From Patescibacteria group bacterium (GTDB lineage: Bacteria; Patescibacteriota; Patescibacteriia; XYB2-FULL-38-15): DNA of 64,000 bases. Under the pieces are notes generated by a model. The model was not told where the DNA came from. It saw only the letters and a list, made by a program, of their open reading frames with translations, and searched no databases. Shown here in pieces: positions 24,043-43,521 of this stretch. The position numbers were made by a program, and so were the translations under genes. The stretch's first letter is position 1, and each line of letters opens with the position of its first letter. Where the stretch lies: assembly GCA_041737355.1 (NCBI GenBank), contig JBGSRW010000008.1, forward strand, positions 191,061 through 255,060, given 5' to 3'.

Positions 24043-24669
24043 ATGCTATTAGAAAACAGGGCTGAAGCAGGCCAAAAATTGGCTGAATTGCTGAAACAAT
24101 TCAAAGACGCCAAAGAAACAATAATCATCGCCTTGCCGCGCGGCGGGGTTGTAGTCGGCTTCGAAGTGGCAAAAGAACTAAATCTCCCGCTGGATATTGT
24201 CGTGCCGCGAAAAATCGGCGCGCCGGGCAATCCCGAATTTGCCATCGGCGCCATAACAGAGTCGGGCGAAATGATTTTGAATGAAGAAGTTTTTGGAATT
24301 TCGGAAAGTTATTTGAAAAGCGAGACGGAAAAGGAAAGGGCCGAGGCGGAACGGAGATTAAGACTCTACCGCGGCAGCCGTCTGCCGCTTGATTTAGAAA
24401 ACAAAACCGTTATCCTGATTGACGACGGCCTGGCCACCGGGCTTACCATGCGGGCGGCTATTTCGAGCGTCAAAAAAATGAAGGCGAAAAAAATTATTGT
24501 CGCCGTGCCAATTGCTCCGCCCGAGACAGTGGAATTGATAAAAAAAGAAACTGATGAAATATTTTATCTTGAGGCTCCCCTGCTCTTCGGCGCCGTCGGG
24601 GCGTTTTACAAAGAATTCGGCCAGACGACTGATGAAGAAGTGATTGATTTGTTGAAAAAATCTGAATAG
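24043..24669 (+). CDS. Type I phosphoribosyltransferase-domain protein
   Basis: 208 aa. PRPP-binding loop VILIDDGLATGLTM. Two PRTase-fold halves. Confidence 0.7.
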   Translation: MLLENRAEAGQKLAELLKQFKDAKETIIIALPRGGVVVGFEVAKELNLPLDIVVPRKIGAPGNPEFAIGAITESGEMILNEEVFGISESYLKSETEKERAEAERRLRLYRGSRLPLDLENKTVILIDDGLATGLTMRAAISSVKKMKAKKIIVAVPIAPPETVELIKKETDEIFYLEAPLLFGAVGAFYKEFGQTTDEEVIDLLKKSE

Positions 24670-24878: not shown

Positions 24879-25487
24879 CTACTTGTGGACGGCCAAGAAC
24901 CGGTAATGATCGCTCCATTCGATGCCGACCCAGAGTACGAAAAGGTGCCGCTCGTTGAGGCGCCAGTCGAGACAGGCGAAGAAGCGGCCGCCGTGCCGAT
25001 CCATGAAGTGCGAGCCGAGAGCCACGATCCCGAACTCCTTCTGGAGCTCGGGACGAGCGGCGCCGAGGGCCAAGAGCTCTTCGATCTTGGCCGGACGGAG
25101 GCCGCGACGGGCGAGTTCCGCGAGAATTTCGTCGGTCGAGGCCATCTTGTTCATGTGAACGAGGACGAGCTCGCGGAGGACCTTGCCCTCGCCCGAGATC
25201 GGGAAGAACCCGGGGGTGATGTCATCGTTCACGAAGTCGTAGCGGCCGGAGGCGATCATTGCCTCGAGGCTCTGACCATAGTCGACCTCGACCTTGAAGG
25301 TCGCGTCGGAAGGGAGGGCCGCCTTCACCATGGCGATTTCCGCCTGGCCCTTGACGAGAGGCAGCAACCGCGCGAGCAGGTCTCCTTCGGAGAGCCGCTT
25401 CACGTCGGCGTTGGTCCAGCCGTTCCGGCCGAAAGCCATTGCCAGCTCATGGGCCTGGCCAGTTGTCATCTTGAACTCGTCACTCAT
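24879..25487 (-). CDS. Hypothetical protein, paralog family member 1 (GC-rich cassette B)
   Basis: 202 aa. Shares the block GRYDFVNDDIT ... RGLRPAKIEELLALGA.RPE.QKEFGIVALGS ... RFLAV with the protein at 42762-43395. Confidence 0.5.
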   Translation of the reverse strand: MSDEFKMTTGQAHELAMAFGRNGWTNADVKRLSEGDLLARLLPLVKGQAEIAMVKAALPSDATFKVEVDYGQSLEAMIASGRYDFVNDDITPGFFPISGEGKVLRELVLVHMNKMASTDEILAELARRGLRPAKIEELLALGAARPELQKEFGIVALGSHFMDRHGGRFFACLDWRLNERHLFVLWVGIEWSDHYRFLAVHK

Positions 25488-33261: not shown

Positions 33262-34302
33262 ATGATCCCCGAAATTGAAAAAACCGAAAAAAGATTTGCC
33301 GAACTCGAAACGGAACTTGCCCGCCCCGAGGTTGTTTCTAATCCGGAAAAATTAAAAATCGTTTCCCGGGAATACAGCGATTTAAAAGACATTATCTCAA
33401 AAATCAATAAATTACACTGTCTGGAAAAAGCCGAATCAGAAACGGAAATCATGGCCAAACAGGAATCGGATGAAATGGTTGCCATTGCCAGGGAAGAATT
33501 GGAAAAAATAAGAAAAGAAAAGTCGGCACTCGAAGCAAAAATAAAAGAAGAACTCACGCCGAAAGATCCTTTGGACAAAAGAAATATTATCGTGGAAATC
33601 CGGGCCGGGGCCGGCGGAGACGAAGCGGCTCTTTTTGCCGCCCAGCTTTTCCGAATGTATTCGCGTTTTGCCGAACGCCACGGATGGCAGACAAGATTGA
33701 TTTCTTCAAACCGCACCGACTTGGGAGGCTTTAAAGAAATCATTTTTTCCGTTATCGGAAAAAATGCCTGGGGAAATTTAAAATTTGAAAGCGGCGTGCA
33801 CCGCGTCCAACGCGTACCGGACACGGAAAAAAGCGGCCGGGTCCATACTTCAACCGCCTCCGTCGCCGTCTTGCCTGAAGCCGAAGAAATTGACATTAAA
33901 ATTGAACCGAAAGATTTGAGAATCGATACTTTTCTTTCCGGTGGCCACGGCGGGCAAAGCGTCCAGACAACCTATTCGGCCGTCAGAATTACCCATCTTC
34001 CCTCCGGTCTTGTTGTCGCCTGCCAGGACGAACGCTCGCAGCAGCAAAACCGGGAAAAAGCCATGCAGGTTTTGCGCTCACGTCTTTTTGTGATGGAACA
34101 GGAAAAACGCCAAGCAGCTGAAGTCGCCGCCCGTCGTTCTCAAATTGGTTCGGCAATGCGAGCGGAAAAAATCAGAACTTACAATTTTCCCCAGGACCGC
34201 GTCTCCGACCACCGCGTTAAGGAAAGCTGGCATAATATAAATAATGTTATGGACGGCGAACTGGACGGGATTATCGAAACGCTGAAAAAAGAATTGCAAT
34301 AA
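33262..34302 (+). CDS. prfA: Peptide chain release factor 1
   Basis: GGQ motif ([12 protein letters not shown]), RF1-type tripeptide region [25 protein letters not shown]. Confidence 0.85.
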
Positions 34303-34395
34303 CAAATAAAATTAAAAAAGATTCTGTTTGACAGGGTCTTTTTTATTTTATACCCTAATGTGATGCCCAAAAGGGAGGAAAAAGGAGGAGGGTGA

Positions 34396-35364
34396 ATGGA
34401 ACAGGTTATCATATCGGGAAACGCCAACCGGCTACTGGCCGAAAAAGTGTGCGGAATTCTACACGCCAAGCTCGGCGAAGCCTGGGCAGGACGCTTTGCC
34501 GACGGAGAAGTTGATGTCGGCGTGCCCAACGTCCGCGGCAAGCATGTGGTCATCCTACAGCCGACTCCCCCGCCGGCGGAAAACTGGTTCGAAATATTCT
34601 TTATGGCCGACGCGGCCATCAGCGGTTCGGCTGAAGAAGTCACGGTCTTCATGCCCTATATGGGCTACGCCCGGCAGGATCGCAAGGACAAGCCGCACCG
34701 CCCGATTTCCGCCAGAGCCATGATTAGAATGCTTGCGGCAATGGGAGTCGACAGATTGATGACCATGGATCTCCACGCCGCCCAGATCCAGGGCTTCACT
34801 CTGCTTCCCTTTGATAATCTCTATCTCTCCTCCACTCTGCTCGAATTCCATCGGGATCTCCCCTGGAAAACCGGCGCGGTGATTGTCTCGCCCGATGCCG
34901 GCGGCGTCGGGCGGGTTAGGGCAATTGCCAAGATTCTTGGCTGCGAGATTGCCTTCATCGACAAACGCCGCGACGGACCGAACCAGTCCGAAGTGATGCA
35001 TGTCGTCGGCGAAGTCAAAGGCAAGATCGCCGTGATGTTGGACGACATGATCGACACAGCCGGCTCTCTCGTCAAGGGCGCCGAAGCGGTCATGGCCGAA
35101 GGCGCGACCGAGGTCCATGCCGTCGGTTCGCACGGCGTCCTCTCCCGGAACCAGAACCCCGAGAAGGATTCGATTGAACGGCTGAAGAAGTCGCCGCTCA
35201 AAACCCTCGTCATTTCCGATTCGCTTCTGATCCCGGAGGAAAAGCGATTCGACCGCATGCACATCGTTTCTTGCGCACCGCTCGCCGCCGAAATGATCCG
35301 GCGCGTTCACAACCGAGAACCGGTTAGCCCGCTCTTTGAGGAGGCCTTTCGCTGGGTAAAATAA
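34396..35364 (+). CDS. prs: Ribose-phosphate pyrophosphokinase (PRPP synthetase), GC-rich
   Basis: YARQDRK, DLHAAQIQGF, VSPDAGGVGRVRA, DDMIDTAGS motifs. Strong RBS aaaggaggagggtga. About 60% GC versus about 42% in adjacent prfA. Confidence 0.85.
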   Translation: MEQVIISGNANRLLAEKVCGILHAKLGEAWAGRFADGEVDVGVPNVRGKHVVILQPTPPPAENWFEIFFMADAAISGSAEEVTVFMPYMGYARQDRKDKPHRPISARAMIRMLAAMGVDRLMTMDLHAAQIQGFTLLPFDNLYLSSTLLEFHRDLPWKTGAVIVSPDAGGVGRVRAIAKILGCEIAFIDKRRDGPNQSEVMHVVGEVKGKIAVMLDDMIDTAGSLVKGAEAVMAEGATEVHAVGSHGVLSRNQNPEKDSIERLKKSPLKTLVISDSLLIPEEKRFDRMHIVSCAPLAAEMIRRVHNREPVSPLFEEAFRWVK

Positions 35365-35570
35365 CCCGGCAAAAATCAAATAGTCCGCCCGAATTTCCCC
35401 TAAAATTCGGGCTTTATTTATTATTAAGACTTGACAAACCCGCTTTTCTGTAATACCCTGAAAATATCATAAATGGTGGCCATCCCGCCAAAGAGGCGGG
35501 AAGGAAGGTGGCCCTAGACATCTGCCGATAGACGGCGGATTAAAAATAGGGAAGGTTGGAGGAGAGAGAA

Positions 35571-35831
35571 ATGTTTTTGGAGAGCCTCGGCATGGATCCG
35601 GAAACCGGTACGATCGGCGCTTCTTCGCTCGGTGCGATCCACGTCAAGAACCGGATTGACCCGGAAAAACCGCTCCGTCGCTGCCAGGAACCCGGTTGCG
35701 GTACGATTCTCCGCAGCGGCAACCCGGACAACTACTGCTCGCTGCACACCTGCTCCGAAAGGCGCGGCAAGAAGTACACCGACTCCGTCGCCCTCCGGCG
35801 CCGGAAGCGGATGCATCTCGTCCGCGTCTGA
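35571..35831 (+). CDS. Small Cys-containing (zinc-ribbon-like) hypothetical protein
   Basis: ATG at 35571 with RBS ggaggagagagaa. CQEPGCGTILRSGNPDNYCSLHTC Cys pattern. Basic C-terminus. Confidence 0.4.
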   Translation: MFLESLGMDPETGTIGASSLGAIHVKNRIDPEKPLRRCQEPGCGTILRSGNPDNYCSLHTCSERRGKKYTDSVALRRRKRMHLVRV

Positions 35832-35926
35832 CCCGCCAAAAACGTGAGAGCCGCGAGTTCGCTCGCCGGCCCTCCGTTCCCAATTCGCGACCAAGGGCTC
35901 CGTCTCCCCCCGGCCCGGCCGCGAAA

Positions 35927-35985
35927 CCCGCACAGTGTCTTGGACAAGAGTCCCACTCCTTCCAGACACTGTGCGGGTATTTTTT
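35927..35985 (+). terminator. Rho-independent terminator
   Basis: cccgcacagtgtct ... agacactgtgcggg long stem followed by TATTTTTT. Confidence 0.5.
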
Positions 35986-35988
35986 ATC

Positions 35989-36017
35989 TTGACAAATTAA
36001 ATTTTTTAAATTAAGGT
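35989..36017 (+). promoter_or_regulatory. Candidate promoter TTGACA-N17-TAAGGT
   Basis: TTGACA 35989-35994, 17-nt spacer, TAAGGT 36012-36017. Same architecture as 5860-5888. Confidence 0.35.
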
Positions 36018-36083
36018 GCGGATAGAAAGGACTTGCCAAAACAACCCCGCGAATCGCGGGCAAAAGGCAAGCGGGAGGAAGAC

Positions 36084-36584
36084 ATGGCAGACGACAAGAG
36101 GGAGAAGGCAAAGGTACTTCTGGCGGACCGCCTGCGAACCCTGCAGGCCGCCGAATTTCTGGACTTCGAGGACATCGTGCGCCACCTGCAAGGTGGCGAC
36201 AGCCTCGCCCGCACCATCGTGAATCTCGCCAAGGTTGTCGGCTTCGACAGCGTCTACGGCGATCTCTACGCCAGGGCGGTCTTCAAGGACAACGGGAAAG
36301 GAATCGTCCAGACCTGGAAGAAGGCTCTCCTGAACGAGGTCTCTCTGGTCGAGGAGCTGCTTCGCAACATCCCCAACGACGAAATCCCCCTCCTCTTCAA
36401 GTTCTGGCTCACGGAGACGCGTGAACGCGCCACCTGGGAACAGCTCGTCAACGCCACCCCTTACGCCATCCTCCGGGCCTGCGCCTCCGAGGGCGACAAG
36501 CGTGCCGACGAAGCTGCCGCTGATGCGGAAGTCGTCGACGAGGAGGTCATGGAGATCGGAGAACCCTCCGACGACGGGAAGTGA
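36084..36584 (+). CDS. Hypothetical acidic protein (GC-rich cassette C)
   Basis: ATG at 36084 with RBS gcgggaggaag. The track ORF begins at a TTG at 36033. About 166 aa, acidic C-terminal tail. Hairpin plus T-run follows at about 36606-36650. Confidence 0.45.
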   Translation: MADDKREKAKVLLADRLRTLQAAEFLDFEDIVRHLQGGDSLARTIVNLAKVVGFDSVYGDLYARAVFKDNGKGIVQTWKKALLNEVSLVEELLRNIPNDEIPLLFKFWLTETRERATWEQLVNATPYAILRACASEGDKRADEAAADAEVVDEEVMEIGEPSDDGK

Positions 36585-36671
36585 TCCGTCACGGCTATAC
36601 GAGCCGCCTCCGCCATCCGCGCAATGAGCCATTGCTCAAAGTGCGGATTTTTTTATGTTATAATTCCATTG

Positions 36672-37523
36672 ATGACCAACCTCGAAGCCATTAATTGGGC
36701 AACTGGAAAATTAAAGAAAAATAAAATTACCTCTCCAGCTCTCGACGCCGAGATTCTTTTAGCTTTGGCTATAAAGAAACCAAAAGAATTTTTCTTTTCC
36801 CATCCGGAAAGAAAATTAACCGCTAGCCAGTTGGCTAAATTTAAAAAAATAATCGCGCGCCGCGCCAAACATGAACCGACCGCCTATATTATCGGCCAAA
36901 AATGTTTCTACGGCTTAGATTTTTTTGTCGATAAAAATGTCTTAATCCCCCGCCCGGAAACCGAAATGCTGGTTGAAAACATAATAAATCAAAAACTATC
37001 CGCCATTATTGACGTCGGCACGGGCAGCGGCGCCATTGCTATTTCACTCGCCAAAAATATTCCCGGCGCCAAAGTTTTTGCCACGGAAATTTCTCCGAGC
37101 GCGATAAAATTGGCCAAAAAAAATATTAAACACCACAAAGTGGCCGTCGAACTTTTGCGTGGTAATCTACTCGCGCCAATTTTTAAAAAAATCATTAATT
37201 TAAAATCTTTAGTCGTTGCCGCTAACCTCCCCTATTTAACTACCATTCAATGGCGCCGCACCCCGCCGGAAATAAAAAAATACGAGCCGCGGACGGCGCT
37301 TGACGGCGGCAAAGATGGACTTAAATATTATCGCAAACTTTTAGAACAAATCAAAAATTTAAAAAACGAGAATCACGAACTGCAAATCACAATCCTCTTT
37401 GAAATTGATCCCTCGCAAACCAAATCAATTGCTAAATTAATCCGCGCCATCTTTCTGGCGGCAAAAATTGAAATAAAAAAAGACCTCGCCGGACGAGATC
37501 GCTTGGTTATTTTTAAAATATAG
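36672..37523 (+). CDS. prmC: Release-factor glutamine N5-methyltransferase PrmC (HemK)
   Basis: IIDVGTGSGAIAISLA SAM-binding motif and NPPY-type motif (ANLPYL). Start taken at MTNLEAINWA, downstream of a TATAAT at about 36655. The track ORF start at 36624 spans the terminator. Confidence 0.8.
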   Translation: MTNLEAINWATGKLKKNKITSPALDAEILLALAIKKPKEFFFSHPERKLTASQLAKFKKIIARRAKHEPTAYIIGQKCFYGLDFFVDKNVLIPRPETEMLVENIINQKLSAIIDVGTGSGAIAISLAKNIPGAKVFATEISPSAIKLAKKNIKHHKVAVELLRGNLLAPIFKKIINLKSLVVAANLPYLTTIQWRRTPPEIKKYEPRTALDGGKDGLKYYRKLLEQIKNLKNENHELQITILFEIDPSQTKSIAKLIRAIFLAAKIEIKKDLAGRDRLVIFKI

Positions 37524-42761: not shown

Positions 42762-43395
42762 TTAGTCAGAGGGCCAAACTTCGCAGAGCCTAAGGGTCTT
42801 TTTGGGAACAGCCAGAAATCGCTCTTCCTGATCCCATCCCCCGAAGCCCGAGTGCAGGACCAAAAACCGCTTTCCCTCACCGTTCCCGCAGAGGCCCGCG
42901 AATTTGCTGCTAATGTCCGGTTTTCCTCGGCACGAACCGAGGGCCACGATCGGAAACTTCTTCTGCTCCTCCGGGAACCTCGCCCCGAGAGCAAGAAGCT
43001 CCTCAATCCTGGCGGGCCGAAGACCGCGATGCTCCATCTCCGCGAGAACCTCGTCGGTTCTCACCATCTTATCCGGCCCCGGGTAGACAAGGATGAGCTT
43101 GCGCTCGGCCTTGCCCTCGCCTGTGATGTCAAATTGGGAGAAGAGGTCTTCGCACGTGGGCTTCTCCTCGTTACAAACTGGACAGATTTCGTCGGTGATC
43201 TCCTTGTCCACCAAGTCGTAGTGGCCAGCGGCGATCATCTCAGGAAGATCGATGAAGTAATTCACTACCACCTTGAAGCTCCGGTCGGCGAACTGACCCG
43301 GATTCCGCAAGAAGACCTGAAAGGCCTCACGCGTCACCCGGCCGGACTCGATCTGGTGGTGGAGTTCGGAAATCTGCTCGATCGTCGGCTTTGCC
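42762..43395 (-). CDS. Hypothetical protein, paralog family member 2 (GC-rich cassette D)
   Basis: Start taken at MAKPTIEQ with RBS gcaaggagaaaagaaa. GHYDLVDKEIT ... RGLRPARIEELLALGARFPEEQKKFPIVALGS ... RFLAV, paralogous to 24879-25487. Confidence 0.5.
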
Positions 43396-43521
43396 ATTTT
43401 CTTTTCTCCTTGCATCTTTCGGTATTCGCCAGGGCATCCCCACATTATTGTTGGGACAGCCTTTTGATAAACCGACGAGACGCTTGCTCCGCACTCCTGG
43501 CAAAGAGTGAAGAACCTAGCT

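What the first reader, a model, noticed from the sequence alone, without database searches (positions are those of the whole stretch)
34303..36671. GC-rich cassette C interrupts the conserved prfA-prmC pair and carries prs
prfA (33262-34302) and prmC/hemK (36672-37523) are adjacent and co-transcribed in most bacteria. Here they are separated by a 2.3-kb GC-rich block. The block encodes a complete PRPP synthetase (strong motifs, about 60% GC), a small zinc-ribbon-like protein and an acidic 166-aa protein, each with its own promoter/RBS and terminator (35927-35985, and a hairpin at about 36606-36650 followed by a TATAAT for prmC). A housekeeping gene (prs) sitting in foreign-looking sequence between two functionally coupled genes argues for insertion or xenologous replacement.
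Basis: partly seen in the sequence, partly recalled or inferred. Interest (0 to 1): 0.7.

Follow-up and report, generated by a model that had tools for sequence, protein, structure and literature searches.

The report
Old, shuffled GC-rich islet between prfA and prmC
The GC-rich block that splits prfA from prmC is real, but it is an old, clade-wide, recombination-shuffled accessory locus of a Patescibacteria lineage that carries a native-type PRPP synthetase and two orphan genes, not a recent foreign insertion.

Summary
Window 34303-36671 is a sharply bounded block of 58-62% GC in a 46% GC genome. It holds three plus-strand genes, each with its own TTGACA promoter, ribosome-binding site and hairpin terminator:
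- a canonical class I PRPP synthetase (prs);
- an 86-aa CCCH zinc-ribbon protein;
- a 166-aa acidic all-helical protein.

The interpretation (foreign insertion or xenologous replacement) is mostly not supported.
- prfA-prs adjacency already exists in low-GC relatives, where prs has native composition.
- The full prfA-prs-small-acidic-prmC arrangement, with the same GC contrast, recurs in eight or more related lineages whose synonymous sites are near or past saturation.
- Prs clusters with the Prs of other Patescibacteria.

What is unusual is the locus itself.
- Four modules come and go independently among close relatives. The fourth is a roughly 340-nt candidate ncRNA that this window lacks.
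- Unrelated small ORFs occupy the same slot between conserved non-coding linkers.
- Allele types do not follow the phylogeny of the flanking genes.
- Both small proteins are clade-restricted orphans with no fold relatives.

The GC-richness is therefore a maintained property. Its codon dialect is shared with other orphan genes in the window. Its cause is unresolved; recombination-linked GC bias or a GC-rich flexible gene pool are the leading candidates. Interest is moderate.

The parts
33262..34302 (+). prfA (RF1), the conserved left flank. GC 46.9%, GC3 0.48.
34309..34395 (+). AT-rich hairpin (34309-34349) overlapping the prs promoter (TTGACA 34328-33, 17-nt spacer, TACCCT 34351-56), then the ribosome-binding site AGGAGGAGGG. 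In relatives the roughly 340-nt M0 ncRNA unit sits here; it is absent from this window.
   Evidence: Sequence (I4).
34396..35364 (+). prs, a class I ribose-phosphate diphosphokinase (322 aa). GC 58.5%, GC3 0.71.
35387..35422 (+). Intrinsic terminator of prs: a 10-bp stem followed by TTTATTTATT.
35431..35570 (+). Promoter (TTGACA 35431-36, 17-nt spacer, TACCCT 35454-59) plus a roughly 105-nt structured leader. The leader has invariant GGTGGC, GAAGGTGGCCCTA and TAGGGAAGG boxes and two hairpins with compensatory changes. It ends in the ribosome-binding site GGAGGAG. It is conserved upstream of unrelated small ORFs in relatives and is found only at this locus.
35571..35831 (+). Orphan 86-aa basic zinc-ribbon protein. 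C38, C43, C56 and H59 are invariant, and the C-terminal helix is Arg-rich. GC3 0.78.
35832..35985 (+). Conserved GC-rich 3' untranslated segment ending in an intrinsic terminator (arms 35926-40 and 35964-78, then a T-run). The terminator stem covaries across relatives. The segment is present even where the upstream ORF is of a different type.
   Evidence: (I5).
35989..36083 (+). Promoter (TTGACA 35989-94, 17-nt spacer, TAAGGT 36012-17) and conserved leader of the acidic-protein gene. The leader holds hairpin 36046-36060 and the ribosome-binding site GGGAGGAAG. A stretch at 35980-36033 is 94% identical over 54 nt to L006.
36084..36584 (+). Orphan 166-aa acidic protein: nine helices plus a disordered acidic tail. 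GC 61%, GC3 0.79.
36615..36664 (+). Terminator hairpin (36615-36648) and T-run, then TATAAT at 36659-36664, 7 nt before the prmC ATG.
   Evidence: Sequence (D1).
36672..37523 (+). prmC (RF N5-glutamine methyltransferase), the conserved right flank. GC about 40%, GC3 0.42.

Best explanation
The block is a long-lived, clade-specific hypervariable accessory locus lodged in the ancestrally tight prfA-prmC junction of a Falkowbacteria-like Patescibacteria lineage. Steps are marked shown or inferred.

- **History (shown).** prs has sat directly downstream of prfA since before this family radiated.
- **Prs function (inferred from family membership).** It is a normal class I PRPP synthetase of Patescibacteria ancestry. 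It probably supplies PRPP to salvage phosphoribosyltransferases such as the one at 24043-24669.
- **Added units (shown).** In a mid-GC subclade the site also holds further self-contained transcription units:
  - a roughly 340-nt structured ncRNA candidate on the opposite strand (M0), lost in this window;
  - a small-protein slot;
  - an acidic-protein gene.
- **Module turnover (shown).** Each module is present or absent independently among close relatives. The small-protein slot holds unrelated alternatives: a short zinc ribbon, a long zinc ribbon, a Cys-free 'D-type' protein, and others. These sit between conserved non-coding linkers, namely a promoter plus structured leader on the 5' side and a 3' UTR, terminator, next promoter and leader on the 3' side.
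- **Shuffling mechanism (inferred).** Homologous recombination in these linkers and in the flanking genes shuffles modules between lineages.
- **GC-richness (maintained state shown, cause inferred).** It is a maintained state, not a leftover of recent import. Its cause is most likely GC-biased fixation linked to frequent recombination, circulation of these genes in a GC-rich flexible gene pool, or both.
- **The two orphans (inferred, weakly).** They are fast-evolving. My best guess is a nucleic-acid-binding zinc-ribbon regulator and an acidic partner or decoy, acting in an interaction that is under diversifying pressure from a host or a phage.
For: **Ancestral adjacency and repeated invasion of the junction**
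- Distant Patescibacteria and other phyla have prfA-prmC gaps of 24-160 bp.
- Family-level relatives carry different inserts at the junction: a TlyA-like methyltransferase, an NTP-transferase, and hom plus asd.

**Age of the arrangement**
- L107 (prfA 76% identical) has L31-prfA-prs, with prs GC3 0.29.
- L008 has prfA-prs-prmC.
- The full arrangement occurs in L005, L083, L084/85, L086-88, L089 and L103/104.
- prfA dS against the window is 0.55-1.3 for the closer lineages and 2.3-3.4 for L084 and L008. Even so, Prs GC3 stays at 0.65-0.72, against 0.46-0.52 for prfA and 0.36-0.45 for prmC.

**Prs is native-type**
- NJ tree; Uhrbacteria and Patescibacteria names on sister-clade proteins; canonical class I enzyme.

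**Independent module turnover**

| Locus | Modules present |
|---|---|
| L104 | M0 + prs + Znr + acidic |
| Window | prs + Znr + acidic |
| L006 | M0 + Znr + acidic |
| L004, L094 | M0 + D-type + acidic |
| L007, L099 | M0 + D-type |
| L083 | prs + D-type + acidic |
| L084 | prs + two Znr |
| L008 | prs only |
| L095 | D-type only |

**Mosaicism**
- The flanks group WIN with L104, L005 and L089, and group L004, L006, L007 and L083 together (78-80% identity).
- Acidic protein: WIN-L086 is 63% identical and WIN-L005 only 41%. L004-L006 is only 33%. L083 pairs with L005 and L089.
- Zinc ribbon: WIN-L006 65% against WIN-L005 48%.
- Acidic-gene dS for WIN-L086 is 0.53, while the flanking genes give 1.0 to saturated.

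**Conserved linkers with covarying stems**
- Alignments A6 and A8.
- All 13 metagenome hits to the leader pattern lie in this same junction.

**Orphan status**
- 16 and 20 clusters among 5.8 billion proteins.
- 13 representatives at E < 1e-10 among 1.84 billion.
- No Pfam, NCBIfam or PADLOC match.
- dN/dS is 0.22-0.47 for Znr and 0.45-0.81 for the acidic protein, against 0.05-0.15 for the flanks.

**Shared codon dialect**
- RSCU correlation of the island with other GC-rich orphans in the window is r = 0.89; with ordinary genes it is 0.39.

**Subclade-wide GC3 rise**
- prfA GC3 goes from 0.34-0.35 in L008 and L107 to 0.46-0.52 in the subclade. This fits a recombination-linked GC bias (Lassalle et al. 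2015, PMC4450053).

**Literature context**
- HGT in Patescibacteria is reported to occur mostly between Patescibacteria (PMC12455944).
Against: - No recombination breakpoints were mapped, and there are no population data.
- At these divergences (dS about 1) the aa-identity incongruence could partly reflect ancient allelic lineages sorted differently, rather than transfer.
- The Prs incongruence is ambiguous. WIN-L083 is closest by dN (0.089), while WIN-L104 is closest by dS (0.73).
- Reported gBGC effects in bacteria are usually a few GC3 points, not 25.
- The GC boundaries coincide with gene ends, and the promoter spacers inside the block stay AT-rich. That looks more like a property of the transcribed units than of a chromosomal region.
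- No GC-rich donor replicon was found (viral scans negative).
- The function of the two orphans is a guess. Nothing tested points to a partner or a target.
Confidence: 0.55

Rival explanations
1. The block is recently acquired foreign DNA inserted between prfA and prmC. Its prs is a xenolog that replaced or duplicates the native gene.
For: - There is a sharp GC step of about 12-16 points at the gene boundaries.
- The codon dialect is distinct from ordinary genes.
- The junction is ancestrally uninterrupted.
- The closest outgroup Prs sequences come from GC-rich contigs (L091 57.5% GC, L092 55.5% GC).
Against: - The same arrangement and the same GC contrast occur in eight or more lineages separated by dS of about 0.5 to more than 2.
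- prfA-prs adjacency occurs in low-GC relatives where prs has native composition.
- Prs nests with Patescibacteria Prs.
- There is no integrase, transposase, tRNA or flanking direct repeat.
- There are no viral relatives.
Confidence: 0.05
2. The locus is old, but its GC-richness comes from repeated re-import. The modules belong to a GC-rich flexible gene pool, for example GC-rich sister Patescibacteria or an unsampled mobile element. Fresh alleles from that pool keep overwriting the local copies, so amelioration never completes.
For: - Allele types are distributed against the flank phylogeny.
- The codon dialect is shared with other orphan islets scattered through the window (r = 0.89).
- Patescibacteria genomes of 56-60% GC with the same flanking gene order (L31, prfA, prmC, DUF3048, L25) exist: L013, L014, L018, L019.
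- The nearest outgroup Prs sequences sit in GC-rich contexts.
- HGT in Patescibacteria is reported to be mostly within the phylum (PMC12455944).
Against: - Every sampled carrier of the orphan families has a mid-GC flank.
- No GC-rich genome or virus with these orphans was found.
- Import endpoints would be expected to leave GC-rich patches inside prfA and prmC, and none is seen.
Confidence: 0.2
3. The GC-richness is selected at the level of mRNA or codons. On this view these strongly promoted genes are very highly expressed, or need stable structured transcripts. C-ending and GC-rich codons would then be an exaggerated form of the genome's own translational bias. The locus variation would be ordinary gene gain and loss.
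For: - Translation genes in the window also lean towards GC3 (0.50-0.575 against 0.39-0.49).
- The island's RSCU shift relative to ordinary genes correlates with the shift seen in translation genes (r = 0.56).
- All three promoters have a perfect TTGACA -35 box and a 17-nt spacer.
- Island dS is lower than flank dS for the closest pair (0.49-0.73 against about 0.9).
- GC-richness tracks the transcribed units, not the spacers.
Against: - Several preferences run opposite to those of the translation genes. AAG is preferred over AAA, CTC over TTG, and GTC over GTT.
- The fast-evolving orphans (dN/dS 0.45-0.8) are unlikely targets of the strongest codon selection in the genome.
- There are no expression data.
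Confidence: 0.12

Closest known systems
Core-gene-flanked hypervariable loci and genomic islets, such as integration hotspots, defence-island hotspots and O-antigen or capsule loci (named from general knowledge)
   Same: A fixed chromosomal address between conserved housekeeping genes. Gene content differs among close relatives. Composition deviates from the genome. Allele types spread by homologous recombination in the conserved flanks.
   Different: The locus is tiny (0.7-3 kb). It has no integrase, tRNA or repeats. It carries a housekeeping enzyme. It has no recognised defence or surface-polysaccharide genes (PADLOC negative). It is GC-richer, not AT-richer, than the core.
Phage morons (named from general knowledge)
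   Same: Single genes bracketed by their own promoter and intrinsic terminator, with composition unlike that of their neighbours.
   Different: There is no prophage context. No viral homologues were found. The units are conserved across a clade at one chromosomal site.
Integron gene cassettes
   Same: A linear array of exchangeable single-gene units at one site.
   Different: There is no integrase and no attC- or attI-like repeats. Each unit has its own promoter, whereas integron cassettes are promoterless. Exchange appears to rely on ordinary homology in the conserved linkers.
Idiomorphs, that is, dissimilar sequences at one locus as in fungal mating-type loci (named from general knowledge)
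   Same: Unrelated ORFs (zinc ribbon versus D-type) occupy the same slot between conserved flanking sequence.
   Different: There is no evidence of any mating or compatibility function. This is a bacterial setting with more than two alternatives.
hemA-prfA-prmC operon of E. coli, with prs nearby
   Same: prfA and prmC are functionally coupled and abut in E. coli K-12. prs lies 3.1 kb away on the other strand. Proximity of prs to prfA is therefore not unprecedented.
   Different: Here prs sits between the two genes on the same strand, with its own promoter and terminator.
Recombination-associated GC enrichment (gBGC) in bacteria (Lassalle et al. 2015, PMC4450053)
   Same: The higher GC3 coincides with the part of the region that shows signs of recombination.
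   Different: The size of the effect (+0.2 to +0.3 in GC3) and the gene-sharp boundaries exceed what that work describes. This was not tested directly here.

Membership tests
Class I ribose-phosphate diphosphokinase (Prs) | Full-length match above the curated cut-off to a Prs family model, with an N-terminal Prs domain and a PRTase domain | tested here: met
   NF002320 scores 330.6 bits against a cut-off of 297. TIGR01251 scores 288 against 113. PF13793, PF00156 and PF14572 all match.
Class I ribose-phosphate diphosphokinase (Prs) | Conserved catalytic and regulatory motifs: the RQDRK loop, the HxxQxxGF motif, the KRR flexible loop and the DDxxDT(G/A)G PRPP loop | tested here: met
   YARQDRKDK, DLHAAQIQGF, DKRRDGPNQSE and LDDMIDTAGS are all visible in the end-to-end alignment to 3dah, 1dkr and 7xmu. 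Which motifs define the class comes from general knowledge.
Xenolog (prs acquired from outside the host lineage) | The gene tree places it inside a foreign clade, away from the host phylum | tested here: not met
   In the NJ tree the window's clade is sister to the Uhrbacteria and Patescibacteria Prs clade. Only two sister-clade proteins carry organism names.
Recently integrated genomic island or mobile element | An integrase, recombinase or transposase gene, or flanking att or direct repeats, or a tRNA target | tested here: not met
   No such ORF is present. There is no tRNA in the 64 kb. Only short chance-level repeats occur at the borders.
Recently integrated genomic island or mobile element | Absent from the same site in close relatives, and composition not yet ameliorated | tested here: not met
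   The block is present, with the same GC contrast, in lineages separated by dS of 0.5 to more than 2.
Hypervariable, recombining core-flanked locus | Different gene content at the same address in close relatives | tested here: met
   At least nine module combinations were found.
Hypervariable, recombining core-flanked locus | Allele genealogy incongruent with the flanking genes | tested here: met
   Met for the acidic and zinc-ribbon modules. Inconclusive for prs. The test rests on identity matrices and NG86 distances, not on ML reconciliation.
Integron cassette array | An IntI integrase and attC recombination sites | tested here: not met
Anti-phage defence system | A match to a known defence protein model | tested here: not met
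   PADLOC gave no hits for any island protein.
Type II toxin-antitoxin pair (Znr plus acidic protein) | A co-transcribed two-gene operon with a known toxin or antitoxin family | tested here: not met
   The two genes have separate promoters and a terminator lies between them. No family matched. Each gene also occurs without the other.
HNH endonuclease (Znr) | A beta-beta-alpha-Me catalytic His-Asn-His core between the zinc-binding pairs | tested here: not met
   There is only a weak hit to the N-terminal part of phrog_144 (E = 3.5e-5). Only 7 residues separate C43 from N51, and no catalytic His is present.
Known RNA family (structured leader; M0 in relatives) | An Rfam covariance-model match | tested here: not met
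   Nothing reached gathering score in the window or in L004-L007. Only chance-level hits appeared at E up to 5.
gBGC-driven GC enrichment | An excess of AT-to-GC fixations over polymorphisms in recombining tracts | not testable with these tools
   This needs strain-level polymorphism data. Only the correlational hints are available.

The most novel reading that the evidence does not exclude
The prfA-prmC junction of this Patescibacteria clade may be an integrase-free cassette-exchange locus. Conserved structured RNA linkers (promoter and leader, 3' UTR and terminator) would serve both as expression signals and as the homology arms that let unrelated orphan ORFs, a 340-nt ncRNA and even the housekeeping prs be swapped between lineages. 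The GC-rich codon dialect would mark a distinct flexible gene pool of these episymbionts. The fast-evolving zinc-ribbon and acidic proteins would mediate a host or phage interaction under diversifying selection.
Probability: 0.15. Interest if true: 0.7.

Novelty: new variant of a known kind. Interest (0 to 1): 0.4.

Why it matters
- **GC deviation is not proof of recent import here.** The deviation has outlived synonymous saturation in many lineages. GC-based island and HGT callers would mislabel this locus, and probably the other GC-rich orphan islets of the genome.
- **prs behaves as a come-and-go module.** It is absent from this site in some close relatives, including one closed 886-kb chromosome. 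That bears on how reduced episymbionts obtain PRPP.
- **A compact natural test case.** The locus could be used to ask whether recombination-linked GC bias, a separate gene pool or codon selection maintains compositional heterogeneity in bacteria.
- **New elements.** The work surfaces two orphan protein families, one with a confident novel-looking all-helical model. It also surfaces two unannotated structured RNA elements.

Tried and rejected
- **Minus-strand ORFs.** The 151-aa and 208-aa ORFs called on the Logan contig were rejected as shadow ORFs of GC-rich sequence, on codon-position GC and on conservation.
- **Known RNAs.** GC-rich islands in a lower-GC genome are often RNA genes. There were no Rfam gathering hits in the window or in L004-L007, only chance-level hits at E up to 5, and no tRNA or tmRNA.
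- **M0 as a decayed prs.** Rejected, because M0 and prs coexist in L104.
- **M0 elsewhere in the window.** blastn and nhmmer were both negative.
- **Repeats or shared promoter modules linking this islet to other islets in the window.** None found.
- **Phage origin.** There were no IMG/VR relatives of the acidic family and none of the leader pattern. The BFVD fold search was negative. The only PHROG matches were the expected Prs family matches (phrog_619, and a weak phrog_12872) and one weak HNH-like match for the zinc ribbon. The viral scan with the zinc-ribbon alignment could not run because the alignment is too variable.
- **Defence system.** PADLOC was negative.
- **Organism names for the sister-clade Prs.** The cluster look-up added nothing beyond two names.
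- **Leader as a general riboswitch.** Rejected, because all 13 metagenome matches lie at this one locus.


Full report
**1. What is in the sequence**

The window has 45.8% GC (sd 5.6 points in 300-bp windows). By its closest relatives it belongs to a Falkowbacteria-like member of the Patescibacteria.

Gene calls across the region:
- prfA, 33262-34302, is RF1.
- prmC is 36672-37523.
- Between them GC rises from about 0.40-0.45 to 0.56-0.655 and falls back to 0.40 within about 100 bp of the prmC start.
- 34396-35364 encodes a complete class I ribose-phosphate diphosphokinase. It scores 330.6 bits on NF002320 against a cut-off of 297 and aligns end to end with solved Prs structures with the catalytic loops intact.

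Two further plus-strand ORFs follow:
- an 86-aa Cys/His protein at 35571-35831;
- a 166-aa acidic protein at 36084-36584.

A gene caller on an independent Logan assembly chose long minus-strand ORFs here instead. Those are shadows of GC-rich sequence. The plus-strand frames show the coding GC3 > GC1 > GC2 signature, are conserved in relatives, and match NCBI protein records.

Each of the three genes has a perfect TTGACA, a 17-nt spacer, a TAnnnT -10 box, a GGAGG-type ribosome-binding site and a hairpin-plus-T-run terminator (sequence).

**2. Synteny**

A scan of one genome per species with RF1 returned 80 loci, which I compared by tblastn.
- In more distant Patescibacteria and in other phyla, prfA and prmC are 24-160 bp apart. 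In E. coli K-12 they abut. Adjacency is therefore the ancestral state.
- In family-level relatives the junction has been invaded several times by different genes: a TlyA-like methyltransferase, an NTP-transferase, and hom plus asd.
- In the window's own clade the same prfA-prs-small ORF-acidic ORF-prmC arrangement recurs, with the same GC contrast. Prs is 57-61% GC, the orphans 60-65% and prmC 37-47%. The loci are L005, L083, L084/85, L086-88, L089 and L103/104.
- prfA-prs adjacency reaches further back. L008 (38% GC) has prfA-prs-prmC with prs GC3 0.40. L107 (37% GC, prfA 76% identical) has L31-prfA-prs with prs GC3 0.29, which is fully native composition.

**3. Is prs foreign?**

- The 14 closest Prs homologues (66-100% identical) all belong to this clade.
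- Next come proteins at 49-55% identity that include Prs annotated as Uhrbacteria and 'Patescibacteria group'.
- After that there is a flat 44-50% plateau of diverse bacteria.
- In an NJ tree the window's clade and the Uhrbacteria/Patescibacteria clade are sisters, apart from everything else.
- RF1 shows the same gradient.

So prs is of Patescibacteria type, and the deep branching order (L107, then L008, then the rest) parallels the decline in prfA identity to the window across those lineages (76%, 78%, then 79-95%). A xenologous origin from outside the lineage is not supported. One caveat: only two sister-clade proteins carry organism names.

**4. Age against composition**

Synonymous divergence in the flanks is already about 0.9 to the closest relative found (L104). 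It is 1 to more than 2 to the others. Across all these lineages GC3 stays at these levels:

| Gene | GC3 |
|---|---|
| Prs | 0.65-0.72 |
| Orphans | 0.72-0.83 |
| prfA | 0.46-0.52 |
| prmC | 0.36-0.45 |

A recently imported block would not show this. The GC-richness is a maintained state.

It is also not private to this locus. The other GC-rich islets of the window encode Pfam-less orphans, plus one DUF6390 protein, that use the same codon dialect. RSCU correlation is r = 0.89 with the island, 0.39 with ordinary genes and 0.60 with translation genes. CTC, GTC, AAG and C-ending codons are favoured.

**5. The locus is hypervariable and modular**

Relatives reveal a fourth module, M0. It is about 340 nt, GC-rich, and lies on the strand opposite prfA. 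It has its own TTGACA/TGnTAGAGT promoter and terminator, no conserved ORF, and a consensus fold of 111 pairs of which 19 show compensatory changes. It has no Rfam match. The window lacks it.

Module combinations found:

| Locus | Modules present |
|---|---|
| L104 | M0 + prs + Znr + acidic |
| Window, L086 | prs + Znr + acidic |
| L005 | prs + Znr + acidic, with only a ~50-nt M0 remnant |
| L089 | prs + Znr + acidic (contig starts at prs; M0 not assessable) |
| L083 | prs + D-type + acidic |
| L084 | prs + two Znr |
| L008 | prs only |
| L006 | M0 + Znr + acidic |
| L004, L094 | M0 + D-type + acidic |
| L007, L099 | M0 + D-type |
| L095 | D-type only |
| L100, L102 | leader plus another small ORF |

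The small-ORF slot holds unrelated alternatives: a short zinc ribbon, a long zinc ribbon with an insertion, and a Cys-free 'D-type' protein. All sit behind the same promoter and roughly 105-nt structured leader. All are followed by the same GC-rich 3' UTR, terminator, next promoter and leader, whose stems covary. A pattern built from the leader's invariant boxes found 13 metagenome contigs, every one at this junction. The leader is therefore a locus-specific element, not a general riboswitch.

**6. Mosaicism**

The flanking proteins group the window with L104, L005 and L089. They group L004, L006, L007 and L083 together at 78-80% identity. The modules disagree with this:
- The acidic proteins of L004 and L006 are 33% identical.
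- The window's acidic protein is closest to those of L086 and L104 (63-64%), not to L005 (41%).
- L083's acidic protein pairs with those of L005 and L089.
- The window's zinc ribbon is closer to L006's (65%) than to L005's (48%).
- dS of the acidic gene between the window and L086 is 0.53, while the flanking genes between the same genomes give 1.0 to saturated.

This is best explained by exchange of modules between lineages through the conserved linkers. Differential sorting of old alleles cannot be excluded.

For prs the signal is ambiguous. dN/dS is 0.08-0.19 for prs, 0.22-0.47 for the zinc ribbon, 0.45-0.81 for the acidic protein and 0.05-0.15 for the flanks.

**7. The orphan proteins**

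- Profile searches of 5.8 billion and 1.84 billion proteins found only this clade: 20 and 16 clusters, and 13 representatives at E < 1e-10.
- The zinc ribbon has invariant C38, C43, C56 and H59 and a basic C-terminal helix. Its only outside signal is a weak match to the N-terminal zinc-finger part of a phage HNH family, and it lacks the catalytic core.
- The acidic protein folds confidently (pLDDT 88) into nine helices with a disordered acidic tail. It has no fold relative in the PDB or BFVD.
- PADLOC, Pfam and NCBIfam are silent.
- There are no viral relatives.

Function is therefore an inference. My best guess is a small nucleic-acid-binding regulator and an acidic partner or decoy under diversifying or relaxed selection.

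**8. Why GC-rich?**

Three explanations remain.

(a) *Recombination-linked GC bias.* The whole subclade shifted upward in GC3 (prfA from 0.34 to about 0.48), and the part of the region that recombines shifted furthest (PMC4450053). Against this, the effect is very large, the boundaries are gene-sharp, and the internal promoter spacers remain AT-rich.

(b) *Circulation in a GC-rich flexible gene pool.* This fits the shared dialect with other orphans and the reported within-phylum HGT (PMC12455944). Against this, no GC-rich carrier has been sampled.

(c) *Selection on codons or mRNA of strongly promoted genes.* The shift is partly concordant with that of translation genes (r = 0.56). Against this, several preferences are opposite, and the fastest-evolving genes show the strongest bias.

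I cannot separate these three with the tools at hand.

**9. Verdict**

This is a new variant of a known kind, the core-flanked hypervariable islet. It has four unusual features: persistent GC enrichment, a housekeeping gene behaving as a module, idiomorph-like ORF replacement between conserved RNA linkers, and orphan components.

Noticed in passing
L006:9100-9500 (minus strand); also L004:9220-9630, L007:9045-9450, L094:1960-2370, L099:9780-10190, L104:5410-5815, L106:560-995: M0 is a roughly 340-nt GC-rich conserved unit between prfA and the next module, on the strand opposite prfA. It has its own promoter (TTGACA, then TGnTAGAGT) and terminator and no conserved ORF. Its consensus fold has 111 pairs, 19 of them with compensatory changes. 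It has no Rfam match. It is a candidate new structured ncRNA of this clade and is absent from the window.
   Followed up: partly
window 35466-35570: A roughly 105-nt structured 5' leader with invariant GGTGGC, GAAGGTGGCCCTA and TAGGGAAGG boxes. It is conserved upstream of unrelated small ORFs in relatives. All 13 exact pattern matches in the metagenome collection lie at this same prfA-prmC junction. It is not in Rfam.
   Followed up: partly
They encode orphans with no Pfam match, apart from one DUF6390 protein. They share the codon dialect of the prfA-prmC islet (RSCU r = 0.89). The ORFs at 24879-25487 and 42762-43445 are 45% identical paralogues.
   Followed up: partly
L005:6999-8021 (CAYZNO010000013.1): The prs of this relative has an in-frame stop at the Trp of the DLPWK motif, which splits it into 172-aa and 164-aa ORFs. 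This is either a pseudogene in the making or a sequencing error.
   Followed up: no
window 36659-36674: The only good -10 box for prmC (TATAAT, 36659-36664) ends 7 nt before its ATG (36672), and no Shine-Dalgarno sequence lies between them. prmC may be translated from a leaderless or near-leaderless mRNA, or from read-through.
   Followed up: no
L009:1079-2047, L011:8096-9631, L013:8958-9794, L012:8068-11300: Other family-level lineages carry quite different genes in the same prfA-prmC junction: a TlyA-like methyltransferase plus a 60-aa zinc ribbon, an NTP-transferase (twice), and homoserine dehydrogenase plus aspartate-semialdehyde dehydrogenase. The junction is a recurrent insertion site.
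   Followed up: partly
L107:3010-6590: This is a low-GC relative with prfA 76% identical. Its gene order is L31-prfA-prs followed directly by S2-Ts-PSP1-GAPDH in the opposite orientation to the window. An inversion breakpoint therefore lies right after prs, and prmC is not downstream.
   Followed up: no
L005, L006, L009, L011, L012, L014, L019 (record titles): Several MAGs of this clade are titled 'uncultured Gammaproteobacteria bacterium' in their records. Their gene order and protein similarity place them with Patescibacteria, so the taxonomy labels are probably wrong.
   Followed up: no
L091:1-10972 (Uhrbacteria JACPJN010000009.1): In the nearest named outgroup, prs sits in a run of small genes that have no Pfam match. 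The genome is GC-rich (57.5%).
   Followed up: no
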